Shown here in pieces: positions 42,998 to 63,918 of a stretch of 64,000 bases of DNA. The notes below the pieces were generated by a model. The model was not told the DNA's origin. It saw only the letters and a program-made list of their open reading frames with translations, and searched no databases. Origin of the DNA: Promethearchaeota archaeon. Its GTDB lineage: Archaea > Asgardarchaeota > Lokiarchaeia > Sigyniarchaeales > SOKP01. Every line of letters starts with the position of its first letter. The stretch's first letter is position 1. The stretch spans positions 64,001 through 128,000 of the forward strand of contig JAHLWS010000078.1 of the NCBI GenBank assembly GCA_019057795.1. The letters are read 5' to 3'. Made by a program: the position numbers and the translations under genes.

Positions 42998-43162
42998 GCC
43001 AAGGTGGCGTAGCCCGGTGAGGTCGTTAGAGTCTTCCAACCTCGGGTAAGAACGCACTAGATCTATCGGAATGCCCGATACAAGTGAAACTGAAGATCTA
43101 GGTATCAGGGGTTCAAAATGTGTCTTGCGATCCGCAACAATATGAAATTCCCCTTCTTGGCA
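42998..43162 (+). tRNA. trnF: tRNA-Phe(GAA) with three BHB introns (43019-43048, 43061-43088, 43118-43148)
   Basis: Spliced form GCCAAGG TG GCGT AGCCCGGTAGA ACGC A CTAGA CTGAAGA TCTAG GTATC AGGGG TTCAAAT CCCCT TCTTGGC A; each intron has a 4-bp helix and two 3-nt bulges. Confidence 0.93.
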
Positions 43163-58324: not shown

Positions 58325-58996
58325 ATGACTGATACTAACTTTACTTTTTTATCCTTAGAAGATAGTATTTATGAAACTCCTTACTTGGATGATGATATAG
58401 ATGACGATATTCTTGAGTGGCATTCGATTGAAGGTGCTGAACGAATTAAGGAGCTTTCAAGACAATTACGAACATTTCTAAATTACAAGACATCAATGAT
58501 TTATTTAAGATTTTCAAGATCTCAGAATTGTGATCCCTTTCATAATAGAAATATGATTATAGAAAAGGAAAGAGAACTTAACATATTAACTTCACATCTT
58601 TTAGCTAATTTAAAAGAGATTGGTGTAGATGACGGAGATATTATTGGTGAGAAAATTCAAAGTCTATTTGATAAAATAAAGACCCTCCCAAATGAAATTG
58701 ATATAAACCGATTAAAAGATATAAAATCAATAAATAAAAAAATATGGGTGTTAATTCACATTTTATCTGAACTTGAGATTCATCATCACTCAAGGCTTTT
58801 TAATAGGATAACGAATATTGCCTGTATTTCTTGTGAAATTCAAAGCATATTGTTTCATCCTTTTTCAGAGTTCTATTATGAATTGAAAAGCAATTATCTT
58901 CTTTTAGTTAAGGAGATATCTGATTTACTAAGAATAAACAATAAGAACAAGGCTCCATCTATTAAAAATAAAAATAGGGAGAGAGTTCTTACATGA
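58325..58996 (+). CDS. Hypothetical protein
   Basis: 223 aa, ATGA overlap with the next gene. Confidence 0.7.
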   Translation: MTDTNFTFLSLEDSIYETPYLDDDIDDDILEWHSIEGAERIKELSRQLRTFLNYKTSMIYLRFSRSQNCDPFHNRNMIIEKERELNILTSHLLANLKEIGVDDGDIIGEKIQSLFDKIKTLPNEIDINRLKDIKSINKKIWVLIHILSELEIHHHSRLFNRITNIACISCEIQSILFHPFSEFYYELKSNYLLLVKEISDLLRINNKNKAPSIKNKNRERVLT

Positions 58997-61821
58997 ATAC
59001 TAAAATTGAATCAGTAAATAGGGGAATGCTAAATGAGGAACGAATTGCAATTTGTTCCCATTTTGGATGTGGTACAATCAAAAAGGTTAAACCACTAAAA
59101 TTCGGTTCATTCGGATTTCGAAAATATCCTAAATGTTCAAAACACAAACTATCTTTAGTATTTGTCGATGAATTTGTAGAGCAATTTATTTGCTCTGTAA
59201 ATGCTTGTTTGTTTGATTTATCAAGCTTGCCACCTAAAGATTTGGTAAATTCTATTACTGAAGATGTTCCAGAAGAATTAGAATTATTTATCAATGTTTG
59301 GATGTATTGCAGTCCTATAGGACGAGGTGCTCAGATTATATCACGATATTTCGATGGACTTTCAAAGGGTTATATCAAATTACTCAGTCGTAAACAGAGA
59401 AAAGCAATTCAATGTGGAAAATCAAGCAAACGAAGTTACAATATGTTGCGTCAGGGATTAAAAAAAATTGCAGATGAATACACACTTTTCTTACAAGAGC
59501 TTCGTGTCGTATCGCACGATTATTGTGATCTAAATAAAGTACTTCCATTATCAAAAAAATCATGTGATATTATTAAAACCTGGCGAAAAAAACAATCAGT
59601 TAATAGAAGAAAGAAAAGTACTAAAGATGAAAATCTAAATGACATTTCATTATTAAAAAATGATTATGATGATATTCTACATTTAAGGACTTCTTCTTTT
59701 ATTATAGGAAAACCTCCTACAGAAAAAATATCTGCATTTGAGCTTTTTTCAGCTTATTTTGAATTTCTAAAGGAAGGTTTATGTAGCAAGCTAAAAAAAG
59801 AAAATATTCAACAAGTATTAAATATCCAAGAAACTAATACAGAGAACTCTTCATCTAAATCTCATTTAAGGCAAGAATTGTTAACCAATCTTTATGGTAT
59901 AATAGATTTAATAAACTTATATAATTCTGATCAAAAAGATGTAATGAAATCTAAATCTAAGGAAATACTAGAAGAATTCATATCCAGAATTGAACAAAAG
60001 GAATTTTATCTACCCAAAAATGCTAACTTAAGAGTTATTGCAAGTACGGTTGTATATACTACAGCTCTTTATGTTAAAAAATTGCCCATATTAACCACAA
60101 GAAAGATTGGAAACATTGCTGCTGCTACTCCCAGCAATATAAGTAGGTATTATAGAAGATATTTTGAGAAATTATATCCTCGAGAAAACTTTGAGATATA
60201 CGGATTTAAACGTATAAAATTAATTATTTCACTATATTTTTTTGAATTATTAAAGAATTCAAAGTTAAGAACATCCGAACTCATTTCAAACCTAGAAAAG
60301 GAGATATATAGTGAATTTTTTAAGGAAGAATTTGGAGAATATTTTACAAAAGACATTGAAATACTCCGTAATATGGTAACTCAATATCGAGATAAATTTA
60401 TTAAATACTTTTCTGATCTAGCTGAAATTGTTAAATTATTAGCAAATACAAGTAAAATTCATAAAGAAATTGGAGCAAAGGTATATCTCAAACCTATTAT
60501 CGACCTTTTAAATGAAGAAAACTTTAACTTGTTTCAAAAATCTCGTTTTGTTTTTTCCGTTAGAGAAATATATGATAGTTTAAGACATAAAAATCCGGAT
60601 CTTTTTCCTCCTCGAGCTTATCAAACAAAAGATAGAAATGTTACGAATAAACAGAGAACTAAAACCGATAAAGATTTGATAAGAATAATTGGAAGTAGAT
60701 TAAAAATATATGCCATAAAAAATATCTATAAAGGTAAGTATTTTAAAAACGGACAAGGAAAGTGTCAAGAATGTCAAGAAGAAAAAATGCTTATAAATAC
60801 CGACATTTCAAGATTGAATGCTCTAGAATTTCACCACACTTCTGAGAAAGAAAATCATTTTACTGCCAATAGACTTTATGAATTATTTACTAAAAATTTA
60901 CGTAATTTGAATTTGTTAGAATGGTTAATCGAGCTAATGGAAGCAGAAGAGGTGGTTCTTGTATGCAGAAATCACCATCGTATATTGGAAGAAAAGTACT
61001 ATGGATATTTTCATTATCTTATAAATTGGAAAAATTTATTCTGTTATCCACCAGAGGTAATACATGCACTCATTAGGATTTCAGTAGATACATTTTATAA
61101 AACAAAACGATTATCTGTAAACAAGAAAGCGGGTATTAGGGATGCAATTGCTAGATATATGAAAAAAAGGTATATTATAGAATTTTTTTATGGTGGTTCT
61201 TGTCATACTTGTGGAGAATTCCATACAAATAATCACTTACCAGCTTTCGTTTATCATCACAAAAATGAAGAGTCTAAAACGGTTAATATTAGTAAAGTAT
61301 ATCATCTTACTTGTTCTGAAATTATTCAAATCATTATAAAAGAGCAAGGTGGATATGTTTGTTCGAATTGTCATAGATTACTTCATTATAACAAATTTAT
61401 CCCCTTATTAGACGATATTTATAAAGATAAAAATATGATTAAAAGGATTATTAAAGACTATAATCGTATTCTCAGAGCATTTTCCCCCATTGAAAGTGTA
61501 GATATTAGAAAGAAGAGTCCTTTAATTAAACCTACTTTAGATACAGATAGCTTTATGAAGTTCTTAATAGCAATTTATGAGATTTCAAAGATGGGTAAAG
61601 AAGTCAATAATACTGAATTAAAAGAATATTTAAGCTATCACGATGTATCGTCCATAACAAGAATTTTTAGAAGAAAAGCTGATATTATTGGTAATTATAT
61701 CAGTATAATAAAAGGAGTTTCCAAATCTAGTCCTACTAAATACAAATTAAATGAAAAAGGAAAAAAAGTTATTTCCTTATTTCAAAAATTTAAGGATTTT
61801 TACGCTATTAGTTCAAATTAA
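58993..61821 (+). CDS. Large multidomain protein: Zn-binding N-terminus, TFIIB-like helical/HTH region, two HNH-like Zn domains, C-terminal wHTH
   Basis: CQEC...LEFHH...CRNHH and CHTC...FVYHH...CSNCH; IASTVVY...TTRKIGNIA; TKYKLNEKG. Confidence 0.7.
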   Translation: MNTKIESVNRGMLNEERIAICSHFGCGTIKKVKPLKFGSFGFRKYPKCSKHKLSLVFVDEFVEQFICSVNACLFDLSSLPPKDLVNSITEDVPEELELFINVWMYCSPIGRGAQIISRYFDGLSKGYIKLLSRKQRKAIQCGKSSKRSYNMLRQGLKKIADEYTLFLQELRVVSHDYCDLNKVLPLSKKSCDIIKTWRKKQSVNRRKKSTKDENLNDISLLKNDYDDILHLRTSSFIIGKPPTEKISAFELFSAYFEFLKEGLCSKLKKENIQQVLNIQETNTENSSSKSHLRQELLTNLYGIIDLINLYNSDQKDVMKSKSKEILEEFISRIEQKEFYLPKNANLRVIASTVVYTTALYVKKLPILTTRKIGNIAAATPSNISRYYRRYFEKLYPRENFEIYGFKRIKLIISLYFFELLKNSKLRTSELISNLEKEIYSEFFKEEFGEYFTKDIEILRNMVTQYRDKFIKYFSDLAEIVKLLANTSKIHKEIGAKVYLKPIIDLLNEENFNLFQKSRFVFSVREIYDSLRHKNPDLFPPRAYQTKDRNVTNKQRTKTDKDLIRIIGSRLKIYAIKNIYKGKYFKNGQGKCQECQEEKMLINTDISRLNALEFHHTSEKENHFTANRLYELFTKNLRNLNLLEWLIELMEAEEVVLVCRNHHRILEEKYYGYFHYLINWKNLFCYPPEVIHALIRISVDTFYKTKRLSVNKKAGIRDAIARYMKKRYIIEFFYGGSCHTCGEFHTNNHLPAFVYHHKNEESKTVNISKVYHLTCSEIIQIIIKEQGGYVCSNCHRLLHYNKFIPLLDDIYKDKNMIKRIIKDYNRILRAFSPIESVDIRKKSPLIKPTLDTDSFMKFLIAIYEISKMGKEVNNTELKEYLSYHDVSSITRIFRRKADIIGNYISIIKGVSKSSPTKYKLNEKGKKVISLFQKFKDFYAISSN

Positions 61822-61889: not shown

Positions 61890-63098
61890 ATGAAAGCTAT
61901 AGAATTAAGAGCAAAATGGGATCCTAAACCAGATTTCAAACTTGGTTTAAAGGATAATGATGGAAAGCTTACTTATCTCGGTTCTCAAGTTTGGAGAGGT
62001 CCACATATAAGTGTTGTGGATAAGGAAAAGCCAAAGATTCTTCCAAATGAAGTGCTTATCAGAGTAAAACGCTGTGGAATTCTTTAAAGATTTGTTTTAA
62101 AGAACACAATATGCGGCTCTGATGTTCATATGAATCAGGCTTACGATGATGGGTATATCTATTATCCTGGGCTAACAGCATTTCCAGTAACCCTCGGACA
62201 TGAATTTGCAGGAGAAATTGTTGAAGTAGGATCTCAAGCAATAAGTAAAAGGACTGGGAAACATTATGAAATAGGAGAGCCTGTAACCGTAGAAGAAATG
62301 GCATGGTGTGGTGAATGCAAACCTTGTTGTGATGGATATCCGAATCATTGCGAACGATTACAAGAAATTGGTTTTTCTATAGATGGAGCGTTTGCCGAGT
62401 ACATAACGGTTCCAGCAAAACTTTGTTGGAGTTTAAAGAAATTAGAAAGAAATTACGATGATGTTTTTAAAATTGGTAGCTTGGTTGAACCAACTTCAGT
62501 TGCTTTCAATGCAGTTATTGAGAGAGGTGGAGGCATTCGTCCAGGAGAAAATGTTATAATCTTGGGGGCTGGACCAATTGGATTAGTCTCTACTAAAATA
62601 TTGAAGACCGCAGGAGCGGGGTTATGCATTGTTTCAGAACCTGAAGAACATCGAGCGTCGTTAGCTAAACAAATGGGAGCCGACTATGTTATTAATCCTC
62701 TTAAAGAAAACTTTGTAGAAAAAGTAAAAGAATATACCGACAATGAAGGTGCAGCGCTATATCTTGAAGCTACAGGATTGCCACAAGTAGTAACTGATGA
62801 CATTCAAAATGCTATTTGGGAATGCAAGGCGGTTAATAGTACCGTCGTAATAGTTGCAAGAGCGGAACAAAGAATGCCAGTGTGTGGAGAGTTTTTTCAA
62901 GTCAAAAGGGCTAGAATTGTAGGAGCTCAAGGGCACTCAGGACACGGAACTTTTTTCAACGTAATTAGTTCGATGGCAGCTGGTATGGATGTTACTCCGA
63001 TGATTACAAAAGAAATTTCTCTTGAAGAAGTCCCAGAAAACATAAAACTTTTACAAACTGATAGAAAAAATTGCAAAATCTCCGCAATTATAAACTAA
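61890..63098 (+). CDS. iolM: Scyllo-inosose 3-dehydrogenase-like MDR enzyme, interrupted by a 30-nt insertion (candidate intron 62080-62109)
   Basis: MKAIELRAKWDPKPDFKLG...TYLGSQVWR...KRCG[I]CGSDVHM...YPGLTAFPVTLGHEF; both ORF pieces are in the same frame. Confidence 0.8.
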
Positions 63099-63105
63099 TA
63101 TGGGA

Positions 63106-63918
63106 CTACAAAATCGATCTTAAATATTGCAAAGAGCTTTTCGCTACTTCTTCAAAAGAAGGCTTCATAATTGTTTCAATTGAAACAAATTCGCTATACC
63201 CTGCGTTTTTAAAAATACTTAGAAAAGTTTTAAAATCAAAATGCCCTGAACCGGGAGCTCTTCGAGTTGTATCTGCTAAGTGTACATGTCCGACATGACG
63301 GGCCACTTCTTTTAAATTCTCCCAAACATAGATAGGATCTTCTTCTAAATGCGTATGAAATGAATCAACTAGCAACTTTAAGTACTCTGATCCTATTTCT
63401 TCAATTAATTTTAATGATTGAGAAATCGTATTATAGGAATCTATTTCGAAACGATTAATAGGCTCAAACACGAGCATTACGTTATTGTCTTCAGCTAACT
63501 TACAACATTCTTTTAAGGAAGAAATAATGTTTAACCTTTCTTTATTTGGATTACTATTGTGTTTGAAACGACCTCTTATTAACCCTATTATGACTTTAGA
63601 TCGCGTTTCTCGAGCAAAATTAATGTATTTTTCAATTCTTTCTATCGCTTTTTCCCGATTAGACTTTTCAGTATCTCCAAAAGAATACCCATAACGTATA
63701 TATGTGCTCCCTGTGCCAAGAGCAGAGATTTTTAATTCGTAAGATTCCGCAATTTCCACAATTTTATCAACATCGATTTTTTCAGGTTCAAGAAGGCTTA
63801 ATTCTACCCCATCATACTGTAAAGGCGCTAGTAATTGGCATAACGACGAAAACTTTTTGATTATGCCCTCTTTGTTGCTTTTAGATTCGTTTAATCCGGC
63901 AACTATACTAAGCAACAT
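63106..63918 (-). CDS. iolO: Sugar phosphate isomerase/epimerase (5-keto-L-gluconate epimerase-like)
   Basis: YDGVEL, GTG, IIGLIRG, EPINRFE, DSFH, HVHLADTTRRAPGSGH; next to iolM. Confidence 0.75.
   Translation of the reverse strand: MLLSIVAGLNESKSNKEGIIKKFSSLCQLLAPLQYDGVELSLLEPEKIDVDKIVEIAESYELKISALGTGSTYIRYGYSFGDTEKSNREKAIERIEKYINFARETRSKVIIGLIRGRFKHNSNPNKERLNIISSLKECCKLAEDNNVMLVFEPINRFEIDSYNTISQSLKLIEEIGSEYLKLLVDSFHTHLEEDPIYVWENLKEVARHVGHVHLADTTRRAPGSGHFDFKTFLSIFKNAGYSEFVSIETIMKPSFEEVAKSSLQYLRSIL

What the first reader, a model, noticed from the sequence alone, without database searches (positions are those of the whole stretch)
62070..62115. Candidate 30-nt BHB intron inside a protein-coding gene (iolM), at the catalytic Zn motif
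The conserved CGICGSD motif is interrupted by exactly 30 nt that contain an in-frame TAA and form a hairpin (TCTTTAAAG/TTTTAAAGA). It folds as a relaxed bulge-helix-bulge: helix GTGG(62074-77)/ACAC(62104-07) with one G.A mismatch, bulges AAT (62078-80) and AAT (62108-10), and outer pairs T-A plus CGC/GCG. Cutting after the second bulge base removes 62080-62109 and restores TGT GGA ATA TGC. The size matches the 28-31 nt tRNA introns in this window. mRNA BHB introns are established mainly for crenarchaeal cbf5, so one in an Asgard metabolic gene would be notable. Caveats: an alternative register (TGTG/CACA) would excise 32 nt and frameshift, and a 27-nt insertion with an AAT target duplication also fits.
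Basis: partly seen in the sequence, partly recalled or inferred. Interest (0 to 1): 0.8.

Follow-up and report, generated by a model that had tools for sequence, protein, structure and literature searches.

The report
tRNA-type mini-intron in Asgard iolM
A 30-base hairpin insert that breaks an inositol-pathway dehydrogenase gene of an Asgard (Promethearchaeota) archaeon has the shape, cut sites and evolutionary behaviour of an intron removed by the tRNA-splicing enzymes, a kind of mRNA splicing that the papers I could search confirm for only one archaeal coding gene (cbf5).

Summary
Window 62080-62109 is a 30-nt hairpin insert with an in-frame TAA, sitting inside the CGICGSD zinc motif of iolM (NCBIfam NF041097). 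Removing it restores the frame exactly.

The main evidence is comparative:
- About 64 orthologues from the same archaeal family carry 13 such inserts (29-30 nt) at three different sites in this gene. The rest read straight through.
- Three inserts are 29 nt, so those genes are frameshifted unless the insert is removed.
- Cutting two bases 3' of each strand of a 4-bp helix (the bulge-helix-bulge, BHB, rule) gives the conserved protein in every case.
- The helices show compensatory changes, and interrupted genes stay under purifying selection (dN/dS 0.03-0.18).

The genome encodes two EndA paralogues and RtcB. A tRNA-Phe in the window carries three introns of 28-31 nt.

I found no RNA evidence: no RNA contig covers the junction.

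It is a new member of a known kind, since only cbf5 coding-region introns are in print. This scan has already noted the same phenomenon on other DNA, in this genome and in other Asgard and DPANN genomes.

The parts
61890..62079 (+). iolM exon 1. It runs from the ATG to the first base of the Ile codon and encodes MKAIEL...VKRCG.
   Evidence: NF041097 model positions 1-64, E = 1e-16. The WDPKP..GKLTYLGSQVW..NEVL..VKRCG motifs are conserved in all orthologues.
62080..62109 (+). 30-nt BHB-type mini-intron. The ends are ambiguous by up to 2 nt leftwards or 1 nt rightwards because of the AAT repeat.
   Evidence: It is absent from about 50 orthologues and present at the same site in 6 other genomes and 3 metagenome contigs.
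62085..62087 (+). In-frame TAA inside the intron.
62074..62077 (+). 5' strand (GUGG, exon 1) of the 4-bp central helix H.
   Evidence: pairs with 62104-62107 as G-C, U-A, G-C, G.A. All four positions pair in G079 and G059.
62104..62107 (+). 3' strand (ACAC, intron) of central helix H.
62078..62080 (+). 5' bulge AA|U. The predicted cut is after 62079.
   Evidence: BHB rule: cut between the 2nd and 3rd bulge residue (stated in PMC2738675)..
62108..62110 (+). 3' bulge AA|U. The predicted cut is after 62109.
62081..62103 (+). Intron hairpin h': 9-bp stem 62081-89 / 62095-103, loop 62090-94.
   Evidence: In one search, 96.8% of cells are paired and 3 pairs changed on both sides.
62057..62072 (+). 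5' strand of the outer exon-exon helix: UAUCAGAGU (62057-65), an AAAA bulge, then CGC (62070-72).
   Evidence: MFE folds. It pairs 9/9 + 3/3 only in the G000/G009/G137 clade.
62113..62124 (+). 3' strand of the outer exon-exon helix: GCG (62113-15) and GCUCUGAUG (62116-24).
62110..63098 (+). iolM exon 2: the last two bases of the Ile codon, then CGSDVHMNQ... to the stop at 63096-98.
   Evidence: NF041097 positions 72-386, E = 7e-116.

Best explanation
Window 62080-62109 is an archaeal bulge-helix-bulge (BHB, tRNA-type) intron inside the coding region of iolM (scyllo-inosose 3-dehydrogenase).

In the pre-mRNA, exon bases GUGG pair with intron bases ACAC to form the central helix. This helix is flanked by two AAU bulges, the 9-bp intron hairpin, and an exon-exon outer helix.

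The splicing endonuclease probably works as a hetero-oligomer of the two EndA paralogues. It would cut after the second base of each bulge, that is after 62079 and after 62109. RtcB would then join the exons and recreate GGA-AUA-UGC, so the zinc-ligand motif CGICGSD and a 392-aa enzyme can be translated.

Shown here: the fold, the frame logic, conservation and covariation across species, intron-free orthologues, purifying selection, and presence of the enzymes.

Inferred: that cleavage and ligation actually happen on this mRNA.
For: 1. Recurrence. 13 inserts of 29-30 nt sit at three sites of this one gene in 12 genomes from 5 genera of the family. About 50 orthologues are uninterrupted. Three more site-1 copies occur in metagenome contigs.

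2. Three inserts are 29 nt (G079 and G059 at site 1, L090 at site 3). The downstream exon is then out of frame unless the insert is removed.

3. One rule (cut 2 nt 3' of each strand of a 4-nt helix) gives the conserved peptide at all 12 inserts tabulated. The central helix has 4/4 pairs in 6, 3/4 in 4 and 2/4 in 2. Site 2 is a textbook motif: [UCGG]AU|U, 8-bp stem, [CCGA]AU|G, with an 8-bp outer helix. The thirteenth insert, L090 (site 3, 29 nt), reads [GCAC]AA|A ... [GUGU]AU|G by eye and fits the same rule.

4. Covariation at site 1. 88.8% of cells are paired, against 41-52% when the partners are slid. Three pairs changed on both sides, against 0 in every slid control. The covariation score is 0.170 against at most 0.054.

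5. After in-silico removal every interrupted gene is open to the normal stop. Whole-gene dN/dS is 0.03-0.18, including pairs where both members carry the insert (L006-L007: 0.067 overall, 0.15 for exon 1).

6. The seven codons ICGSDVH between the intron and the next ATG vary only synonymously among the seven carriers: ATA/ATC, TGC/TGT, GGC/GGT, TCT/TCA/TCC, GTT/GTC/GTA/GTG, CAT/CAC. So this stretch is translated.

7. Machinery. There are two EndA paralogues of about 200 aa. One carries the Tyr/His/Lys catalytic residues. The other lacks the His and aligns to the non-catalytic half of two-domain EndAs. There is one RtcB.

8. Context. tRNA-Phe in the window has three non-canonical introns of 29, 28 and 31 nt. 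ARAGORN finds only 14 uninterrupted tRNA genes in this 100%-complete genome. A second gene in the genome (C43:23304-23332, minus strand) has a canonical 29-nt BHB insert splitting a CxxCxxCxxxC ferredoxin motif.
Against: - There is no RNA-level evidence. The RNA-labelled runs do not cover the junction.
- G000's own motif is relaxed. The central helix has a G.A mismatch, and the outer helix has a bulged U and an AAAA bulge. In G024 and G012 only 2 of 4 central pairs form.
- RNAfold's minimum-energy fold prefers the alternative UGUG/CACA register, which would remove 32 nt and frameshift.
- Exon-1 dN/dS among the three closest carriers is 0.4-0.9, on few substitutions. I attribute this to a mosaic segment at nt 100-200, but it does not exclude recent decay in G000 itself.
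- My genome-wide BHB+ORF scan showed no excess of frame-restoring motifs, so such introns are few relative to chance motifs.
Confidence: 0.8

Rival explanations
1. In G000 the gene is a recent pseudogene. The insert is, or descends from, an intron that is no longer removed efficiently, and iolM is non-functional in this genome.
For: The motif is relaxed, with a G.A mismatch in the central helix. Exon-1 dN/dS is 0.88 against G009 and 0.48 against G137. Intron-free alleles with 96-97% nt identity in exon 2 (98% aa) circulate, so the intron-bearing allele is dispensable at population level. The locus is invaded by nuclease genes, for example the 942-aa ORF directly upstream.
Against: Both exons are open, all conserved motifs are intact, and exon-2 dN/dS is 0.05-0.09. 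The same G.A-containing helix is kept in three separate species (G000, G009, G137), together with a perfect 9+3-bp exon-exon helix found only in these carriers. The elevated exon-1 divergence is confined to a mosaic tract at nt 100-200 that G000 shares with G009.
Confidence: 0.08
2. Translational bypass (hopping). The ribosome takes off at the Ile codon AUU (62079-81) and lands on AUA/AUC 29-30 nt downstream, skipping the hairpin and its stop. This would resemble T4 gene 60 or the mitochondrial 'byp' elements.
For: At site 1 there is an Ile codon at both ends of the gap, a stop codon two codons after the take-off, and a hairpin. A hop would also tolerate 29-nt gaps.
Against: At sites 2 and 3 the codons at the two ends do not match (GAU vs AAU; CAA vs UAU), yet the inserts have the same size and architecture. 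What is conserved and covaries is the 4-bp exon-intron helix and the bulge spacing, which a hop does not need. The stop does not directly follow the take-off codon. No bypass system is known in archaea (my own knowledge).
Confidence: 0.03
3. Split gene. The insert is never removed, and the cell makes a 65-aa N-terminal peptide plus a 322-aa protein restarting at Met 62130.
For: Gene callers annotate 322-aa products for the interrupted alleles (P0018 and P0023). An ATG lies 20 nt after the insert.
Against: The zinc-ligand segment ICGSDVH would then be untranslated, yet it shows only synonymous variation among carriers. Site-3 inserts (GAQ|GHSGH) have no restart codon nearby. The catalytic Cys would be lost.
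Confidence: 0.02
4. A miniature mobile DNA insertion (with an AAT target duplication) or an assembly artefact, with no RNA-level removal.
For: The AAT direct repeat and the palindromic core.
Against: It is single-copy in the genome. It is present in seven independently assembled MAGs from different projects and in three metagenome contigs, with sequence variation. A contig of run X4 (library type not on record) also carries a variant of it. The carriers are under purifying selection.
Confidence: 0.02

Closest known systems
BHB intron in the cbf5 (pseudouridine synthase) pre-mRNA of Crenarchaeota (Watanabe 2002; Yoshinari 2006; Yokobori 2009, PMC2738675)
   Same: A short intron inside a coding region, at codons for a catalytic motif. 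The BHB is often relaxed, and the predicted cut lies between the 2nd and 3rd bulge residue. It is linked to a hetero-oligomeric EndA, and its distribution is patchy, with gains and losses among relatives.
   Different: A different gene (iolM, a metabolic enzyme) and a different phylum (Promethearchaeota/Asgard, mesophilic and AT-rich). There are three separate insertion sites in one gene, and one orthologue carries two introns. Splicing of cbf5 was confirmed by cDNA; here it is not.
Non-canonical tRNA introns of Asgard archaea and Thermoproteales (PMC11291895; bioRxiv 10.64898/2026.10.13.758758)
   Same: The same size class (28-31 nt here), the same BHB logic, positions outside 37/38, and repeated gains. 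The same enzymes are presumed. A tRNA-Phe with three such introns lies in this window.
   Different: The host RNA is an mRNA. There is no tRNA body to help recognition, so the exons themselves must supply the central and outer helices. Removal must be exact to the base to keep the reading frame.
BHB intron in the 5' UTR of Haloferax volcanii HVO_1309 (PMC7714728)
   Same: An mRNA substrate of the archaeal splicing endonuclease, shown there by circRNA-seq and in vitro cleavage.
   Different: That intron lies in an untranslated leader (46 nt) and does not interrupt codons.
Translational bypass elements (T4 gene 60; yeast mitochondrial byps)
   Same: Short stop-containing hairpin inserts in coding sequence that do not appear in the protein.
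   Different: Those elements need matched take-off and landing codons, which are not met at two of the three sites here. They have no conserved exon-intron 4-bp helix with 3-nt bulges.

Membership tests
Archaeal BHB (EndA-dependent, tRNA-type) intron | Two 3-nt bulges separated by a 4-bp helix, flanked by helices (hBHBh' or a relaxed form) | tested here: met
   G000 has 3 bp plus a G.A mismatch in the central helix, AAU bulges, a 9-bp inner stem and an interrupted outer helix of 1+3+9 bp. The motif is canonical in G079 and G059 (site 1), G061 (site 2), and G071 and G070 (site 3).
Archaeal BHB (EndA-dependent, tRNA-type) intron | Cutting after the 2nd base of each bulge yields the functional, conserved mature sequence | tested here: met
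   It restores CGICGSD, GSDVH and GAQGHSGH in all 12 inserts tabulated, including two of the three 29-nt frameshifting ones. The third 29-nt insert, L090, fits the same rule by eye.
Archaeal BHB (EndA-dependent, tRNA-type) intron | Helices maintained by compensatory change | tested here: met
   3 pairs with double-sided changes against 0 in slid controls; 1 of 500 shuffles reaches the covariation score. There are only 7 related sequences, and the alignment was fitted to the model.
Archaeal BHB (EndA-dependent, tRNA-type) intron | Intron-free orthologues with a contiguous sequence at exactly the junction | tested here: met
   Some intron-free alleles are 96-97% nt-identical in exon 2.
Archaeal BHB (EndA-dependent, tRNA-type) intron | Host encodes the splicing endonuclease and an RtcB-type ligase | tested here: met
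   two EndA paralogues (C69:74164-74766 and C74:72273-72878) and RtcB (C70:112485-113792).
Archaeal BHB (EndA-dependent, tRNA-type) intron | Spliced RNA, excised (circular) intron, or in vitro cleavage observed | not testable with these tools
   The RNA runs found do not cover the junction. No exact spliced-junction sequence occurs in the JGI metagenome contigs.
cbf5 pre-mRNA intron (orthologous intron of Crenarchaeota) | Located in cbf5 at the catalytic Asp codon | tested here: not met
   The host gene is iolM (NF041097). It belongs to the same class of intron but is not the same intron.
Programmed translational bypass | Matching take-off and landing codons at the ends of the gap | tested here: not met
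   Site 1 has AUU and AUA/AUC (both Ile), but site 2 has GAU and AAU, and site 3 has CAA and UAU.
MITE / small insertion element | Multiple dispersed copies in the genome | tested here: not met
   One copy by blastn-short and by covariance model.
IolM, scyllo-inosose 3-dehydrogenase (NCBIfam NF041097) | Full-length match above the curated cut-off (450 bits) | tested here: inconclusive
   The exons scored separately give 60.7 + 387.1 bits and cover model positions 1-64 and 72-386. The intron-free orthologue L005 scores 506 bits. I could not submit the joined G000 protein.

The most novel reading that the evidence does not exclude
Loki-type Asgard archaea may hold a turning-over population of tRNA-type mini-introns in ordinary protein-coding genes. 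These would be gained and lost repeatedly wherever two exon stretches can fold into a BHB. Here that means three sites in one metabolic gene, with presence/absence differing between alleles 96-97% nt-identical in exon 2. EndA/RtcB-dependent mRNA splicing would then be a routine step of gene expression in the closest prokaryotic relatives of eukaryotes. The cluster of substitutions within about 25 nt of the site in intron-plus versus intron-minus alleles hints at one of two things: introns spread or vanish by short gene-conversion tracts, or the flanking exons co-evolve with the intron to build the outer helix.
Probability: 0.5. Interest if true: 0.85.

Novelty: new member of a known kind. Interest (0 to 1): 0.72.

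Why it matters
In the papers I could search, splicing of an archaeal coding region by the tRNA endonuclease is confirmed only for cbf5 in Crenarchaeota. PMC7714728 says so explicitly, and PMC2738675 says other cases were only predicted.

A conserved, covarying, frame-critical intron in a metabolic gene of an Asgard archaeon extends this to the lineage nearest to eukaryotes. Two further insertion sites in the same gene, and similar cases elsewhere in the genome, add to it.

Three things follow:
- Gene callers systematically truncate or split such genes. Here they produce a 322-aa 'protein' that lacks its zinc ligand, which distorts metabolic reconstructions.
- The substrate range of Asgard EndA becomes a directly testable question.
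- The locus offers natural intron-plus and intron-minus allele pairs for studying how protein-free introns are gained and lost.

Tried and rejected
1. RNA evidence. The look-up of sequencing runs and read laying returned only Logan contigs. The one true RNA run covers 62487-63051 of a relative (93% alike). No RNA contig reaches the junction. Run X4 (library type not on record) holds both an insert-bearing contig and an insert-free, diverged form. This gives no verdict on splicing.

2. An exact spliced-junction pattern in JGI metagenome contigs gave 0 hits.

3. A protein search for a full-length product with G000-type exon 1 found none. The best 392-aa hits come from contigs that also carry intergenic sequence and, for two of the three, neighbouring genes, so they look like DNA from intron-free relatives.

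4. A genome-wide scan of G000 for BHB motifs whose removal fuses two open frames gave a right-frame to wrong-frame ratio of about 1.0 at every stringency. Chance motifs between adjacent genes swamp any true introns, so the scan is uninformative.

5. A follow-up filter using paralogues that span the junction was also too noisy: 67 right-frame loci against 117 wrong-frame loci. It did recover iolM and one convincing extra case on contig C43.

6. I did not look beyond that.

7. rpl11 is indeed in three frame-shifted pieces, but I could not settle a BHB register for its first insert by hand.

8. MAFFT misaligned the 29-nt variants. I replaced that alignment with a covariance-model alignment.

9. 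I rejected the MITE, assembly-artefact, bypass and split-gene readings for the reasons given under the rivals.

Full report
**What is there.**
On the + strand an ORF starts at ATG 61890 and reads MKAIEL...VKRCGIL, then hits TAA at 62085-87. The same frame reopens and continues as ...ICGSDVHMNQ... to the stop at 63096-98.

Deleting 62080-62109 (30 nt) yields TGT GGA ATA TGC, which is the CGICGSD zinc-ligand motif of medium-chain dehydrogenases. An AAT repeat (62078-80 and 62108-10) means four cut positions give the same product.

The insert contains a 9-bp hairpin. The 76-nt surrounding RNA folds at -21.6 kcal/mol, z = -3.7. The insert is unique in the window and in the 4.95-Mb, 87-contig, 31%-GC genome.

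The gene is iolM. Exon 1 matches NCBIfam NF041097 (scyllo-inosose 3-dehydrogenase) positions 1-64, and the downstream ORF matches positions 72-386. The convergent neighbour (63106-63918, minus strand) is IolO-like. Orthologues 94-97% identical come from MAGs titled Promethearchaeota, including cold-seep bins. The Asgard assignment is therefore reasonable.

**Comparative evidence.**
I searched the genomes of the genus and family and the GTDB contigs and recovered about 64 full or nearly full orthologues. I aligned 43 of them jointly and compared the rest pairwise with an intron-free reference. This showed inserts at three separate sites.

- Site 1 (CGI|CGSD) is occupied in G000, G009, G137, G024 and G012 with 30 nt, and in G079 (another genus) and G059 (a third genus) with 29 nt.
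- Site 2 (GSD|VH) is occupied in G061 with 30 nt.
- Site 3 (GAQ|GHSGH) is occupied in G066, G061, G071 and G070 with 30 nt, and in L090 with 29 nt.
- G061 carries two inserts.
- All other orthologues read straight through.
- A degenerate pattern search found three more site-1 copies in metagenome contigs. One of them sits in a more diverged orthologue.

The 29-nt inserts put the downstream exon in another frame. Read-through of the stop or a tolerated in-frame insertion therefore cannot explain them. After in-silico removal every gene is open to its normal stop.

**The fold and the cut rule.**
I applied the canonical rule: a 4-nt helix strand, then two bulge bases, then the cut, on both strands. 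PMC2738675 states the cut lies between the second and third bulge residues. The 12 inserts tabulated give the following.

| Feature | Result |
|---|---|
| Central helix | 4/4 pairs in six inserts, 3/4 in four, 2/4 in two |
| Inner stem | 8-10 bp, with 0-3 mismatches |
| Outer helix, site 2 | 8 bp |
| Outer helix, site 3 | 4 bp |
| Outer helix, site 1 | 0-2 contiguous bp |

- Site 2 in G061 is a textbook hBHBh' motif: [UCGG]AU|U, 8-bp stem, [CCGA]AU|G.
- Site 1 in G079 and G059 is canonical: [GUGG]AA|U, 9-bp stem, [CCAU]AA|U.
- The thirteenth insert, L090 (site 3, 29 nt), was not in the table. By eye it reads [GCAC]AA|A ... [GUGU]AU|G, which fits the same rule.

In G079 and G059 the A-to-C change does two things. 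It completes the central helix, and it removes the U-A pair that RNAfold uses for the competing 32-nt register in G000. The frame-restoring register is thus the one that comparison supports.

I built a covariance-model alignment of the seven site-1 copies. On it, 88.8% of cells are paired, against 41-52% when the partners are slid. Three pairs changed on both sides, against none in any slid control. The covariation score is 0.170 against at most 0.054, and 1 of 500 shuffles reaches it. The sample is small and the alignment was fitted to the model, so this is supportive rather than conclusive.

In G000, G009 and G137 the outer helix is longer than a contiguous count suggests. It consists of U62073-A62111, CGC/GCG, and a 9-bp exon-exon helix (62057-65 with 62116-24). 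Only these three carriers reach 9/9 + 2-3/3 pairs. Other orthologues typically reach 5-7 of 9.

**Selection.**
- Whole-gene dN/dS is 0.03-0.18 for all pairs.
- Pairs where both members carry an insert behave the same way. L006-L007 give 0.067 overall and 0.15 for exon 1. L038-L040 give 0.055.
- The conserved exon-1 motifs are intact in every carrier.
- The seven codons ICGSDVH lie between the intron and the next ATG. Six of them vary among the seven carriers, and every change is synonymous. This excludes a model in which translation simply restarts at Met 62130.

Exon-1 dN/dS among G000, G009 and G137 is high (0.4-0.9) but rests on few changes. The differences concentrate in nt 100-200, where G000 and G009 share a tract resembling a more distant lineage. 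I read this as mosaicism. It still leaves a small chance of recent decay in G000.

**Distribution.**
The gene tree follows the genera. Site 1 needs at least four changes of state on the tree, and site 3 needs three.

Intron-free alleles exist that are 96-97% nt-identical to G000 in exon 2 (98% aa). Between G137 (intron present) and these alleles, 11 of 47 differences fall within positions 165-204, around the site at about 190. Two explanations fit: short gene-conversion tracts accompany gain or loss, or the exons co-evolve with the intron. I could not decide between them, and I found no donor sequence.

**Machinery and context.**
The genome has two EndA paralogues of about 200 aa. One has the catalytic Tyr/His/Lys and aligns to the catalytic half of two-domain EndAs. 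The other lacks the His and aligns to the non-catalytic half. This suggests a hetero-oligomeric enzyme, the type linked in print to relaxed motifs and to cbf5 splicing. That link is an inference. There is one RtcB.

The window holds a tRNA-Phe with three non-canonical introns of 29, 28 and 31 nt. Both scanners miss it, but it becomes a clean tRNA when the introns are removed. ARAGORN finds only 14 uninterrupted tRNA genes in the whole genome.

Elsewhere in G000 a canonical 29-nt BHB insert splits a ferredoxin CxxCxxCxxxC motif. The single uL11 gene lies in three frame-shifted pieces.

**Rivals.**
- Bypass fails because the take-off and landing codons do not match at sites 2 and 3.
- A mobile insertion or an artefact fails on copy number, on independent assemblies and on selection.
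- A split gene fails on the synonymous-only variation of ICGSDVH.
- A recent pseudogene in G000 alone cannot be excluded. I give it about 8%.

**What is missing.**
No RNA run covers the junction. No spliced-junction sequence turned up in the metagenome contigs. My genome-wide motif scan was swamped by chance hits.

**Known or new.**
The searchable literature reports coding-region BHB introns only for crenarchaeal cbf5, plus one 5'-UTR intron in Haloferax. Asgard tRNA-intron richness is published. I found nothing on Asgard mRNA introns.

Earlier notes of this scan describe the same phenomenon in this genome and in other Asgard and DPANN genomes. I treated them as leads. I checked the tRNA-Phe note fully, the rpl11 note in part, and the literature statements by reading the papers.

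This finding is a new member of a known kind of intron. Its support comes from comparison between genomes and not yet from RNA.

Noticed in passing
window 42998-43162 (+): tRNA-Phe(GAA) gene with three non-canonical introns at 43019-47, 43062-89 and 43118-48 (29, 28 and 31 nt). ARAGORN and Rfam miss it at gathering threshold. The T-loop intron obeys [UUCA]AA|...[UGAA]AU|.
   Followed up: yes
G000 contig C43:23304-23332 (minus strand): A 29-nt insert with a canonical BHB (GUGC/GCAU 4/4, bulges AG|U and AC|A, 8-bp stem). It splits a 4Fe-4S motif, CTGCGNCVVGCA^EGALAIIDG. Paralogues align across the junction. This is another candidate mRNA intron, and it is frameshifting.
   Followed up: partly
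G000 contig C73:108426-108999 (L129:1423-1996, minus strand): The only uL11 (rpl11) gene lies in three pieces in different frames: MSKTNK...GGPPI, then GPAVGPTGIN, then ...IKDVVDAVNEK.... I could not fix the BHB register of the first insert.
   Followed up: partly
window 61990-62090 versus L131, L133, L014 and L015: There is a mosaic tract in iolM exon 1. G000 and G009 share a diverged segment at gene nt 100-200, up to 20 differences per 60 nt against otherwise 96-97% identical alleles. Intron-plus and intron-minus alleles differ in a cluster within about 25 nt of the intron site. This suggests recombination or structure-driven co-evolution next to the intron.
   Followed up: partly
window 58993-61821 (+): A 942-aa ORF with several CxxC/HNH-like motifs lies directly upstream of iolM. 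In an intron-free close relative (L133) this position is instead occupied by MFS transporter genes. The inositol cluster of G000 therefore seems to have been invaded by a nuclease-bearing element.
   Followed up: no
G000 whole genome: ARAGORN finds only 14 uninterrupted tRNA genes in a 100%-complete genome, and 27 when canonical introns are allowed. Most tRNA genes are therefore probably interrupted at non-canonical positions.
   Followed up: partly
protein database hits P0018 and P0023: Public gene calls for the interrupted alleles are 322-aa proteins that start at the internal Met and lack the zinc-ligand Cys. This is a systematic annotation error caused by the intron.
   Followed up: no
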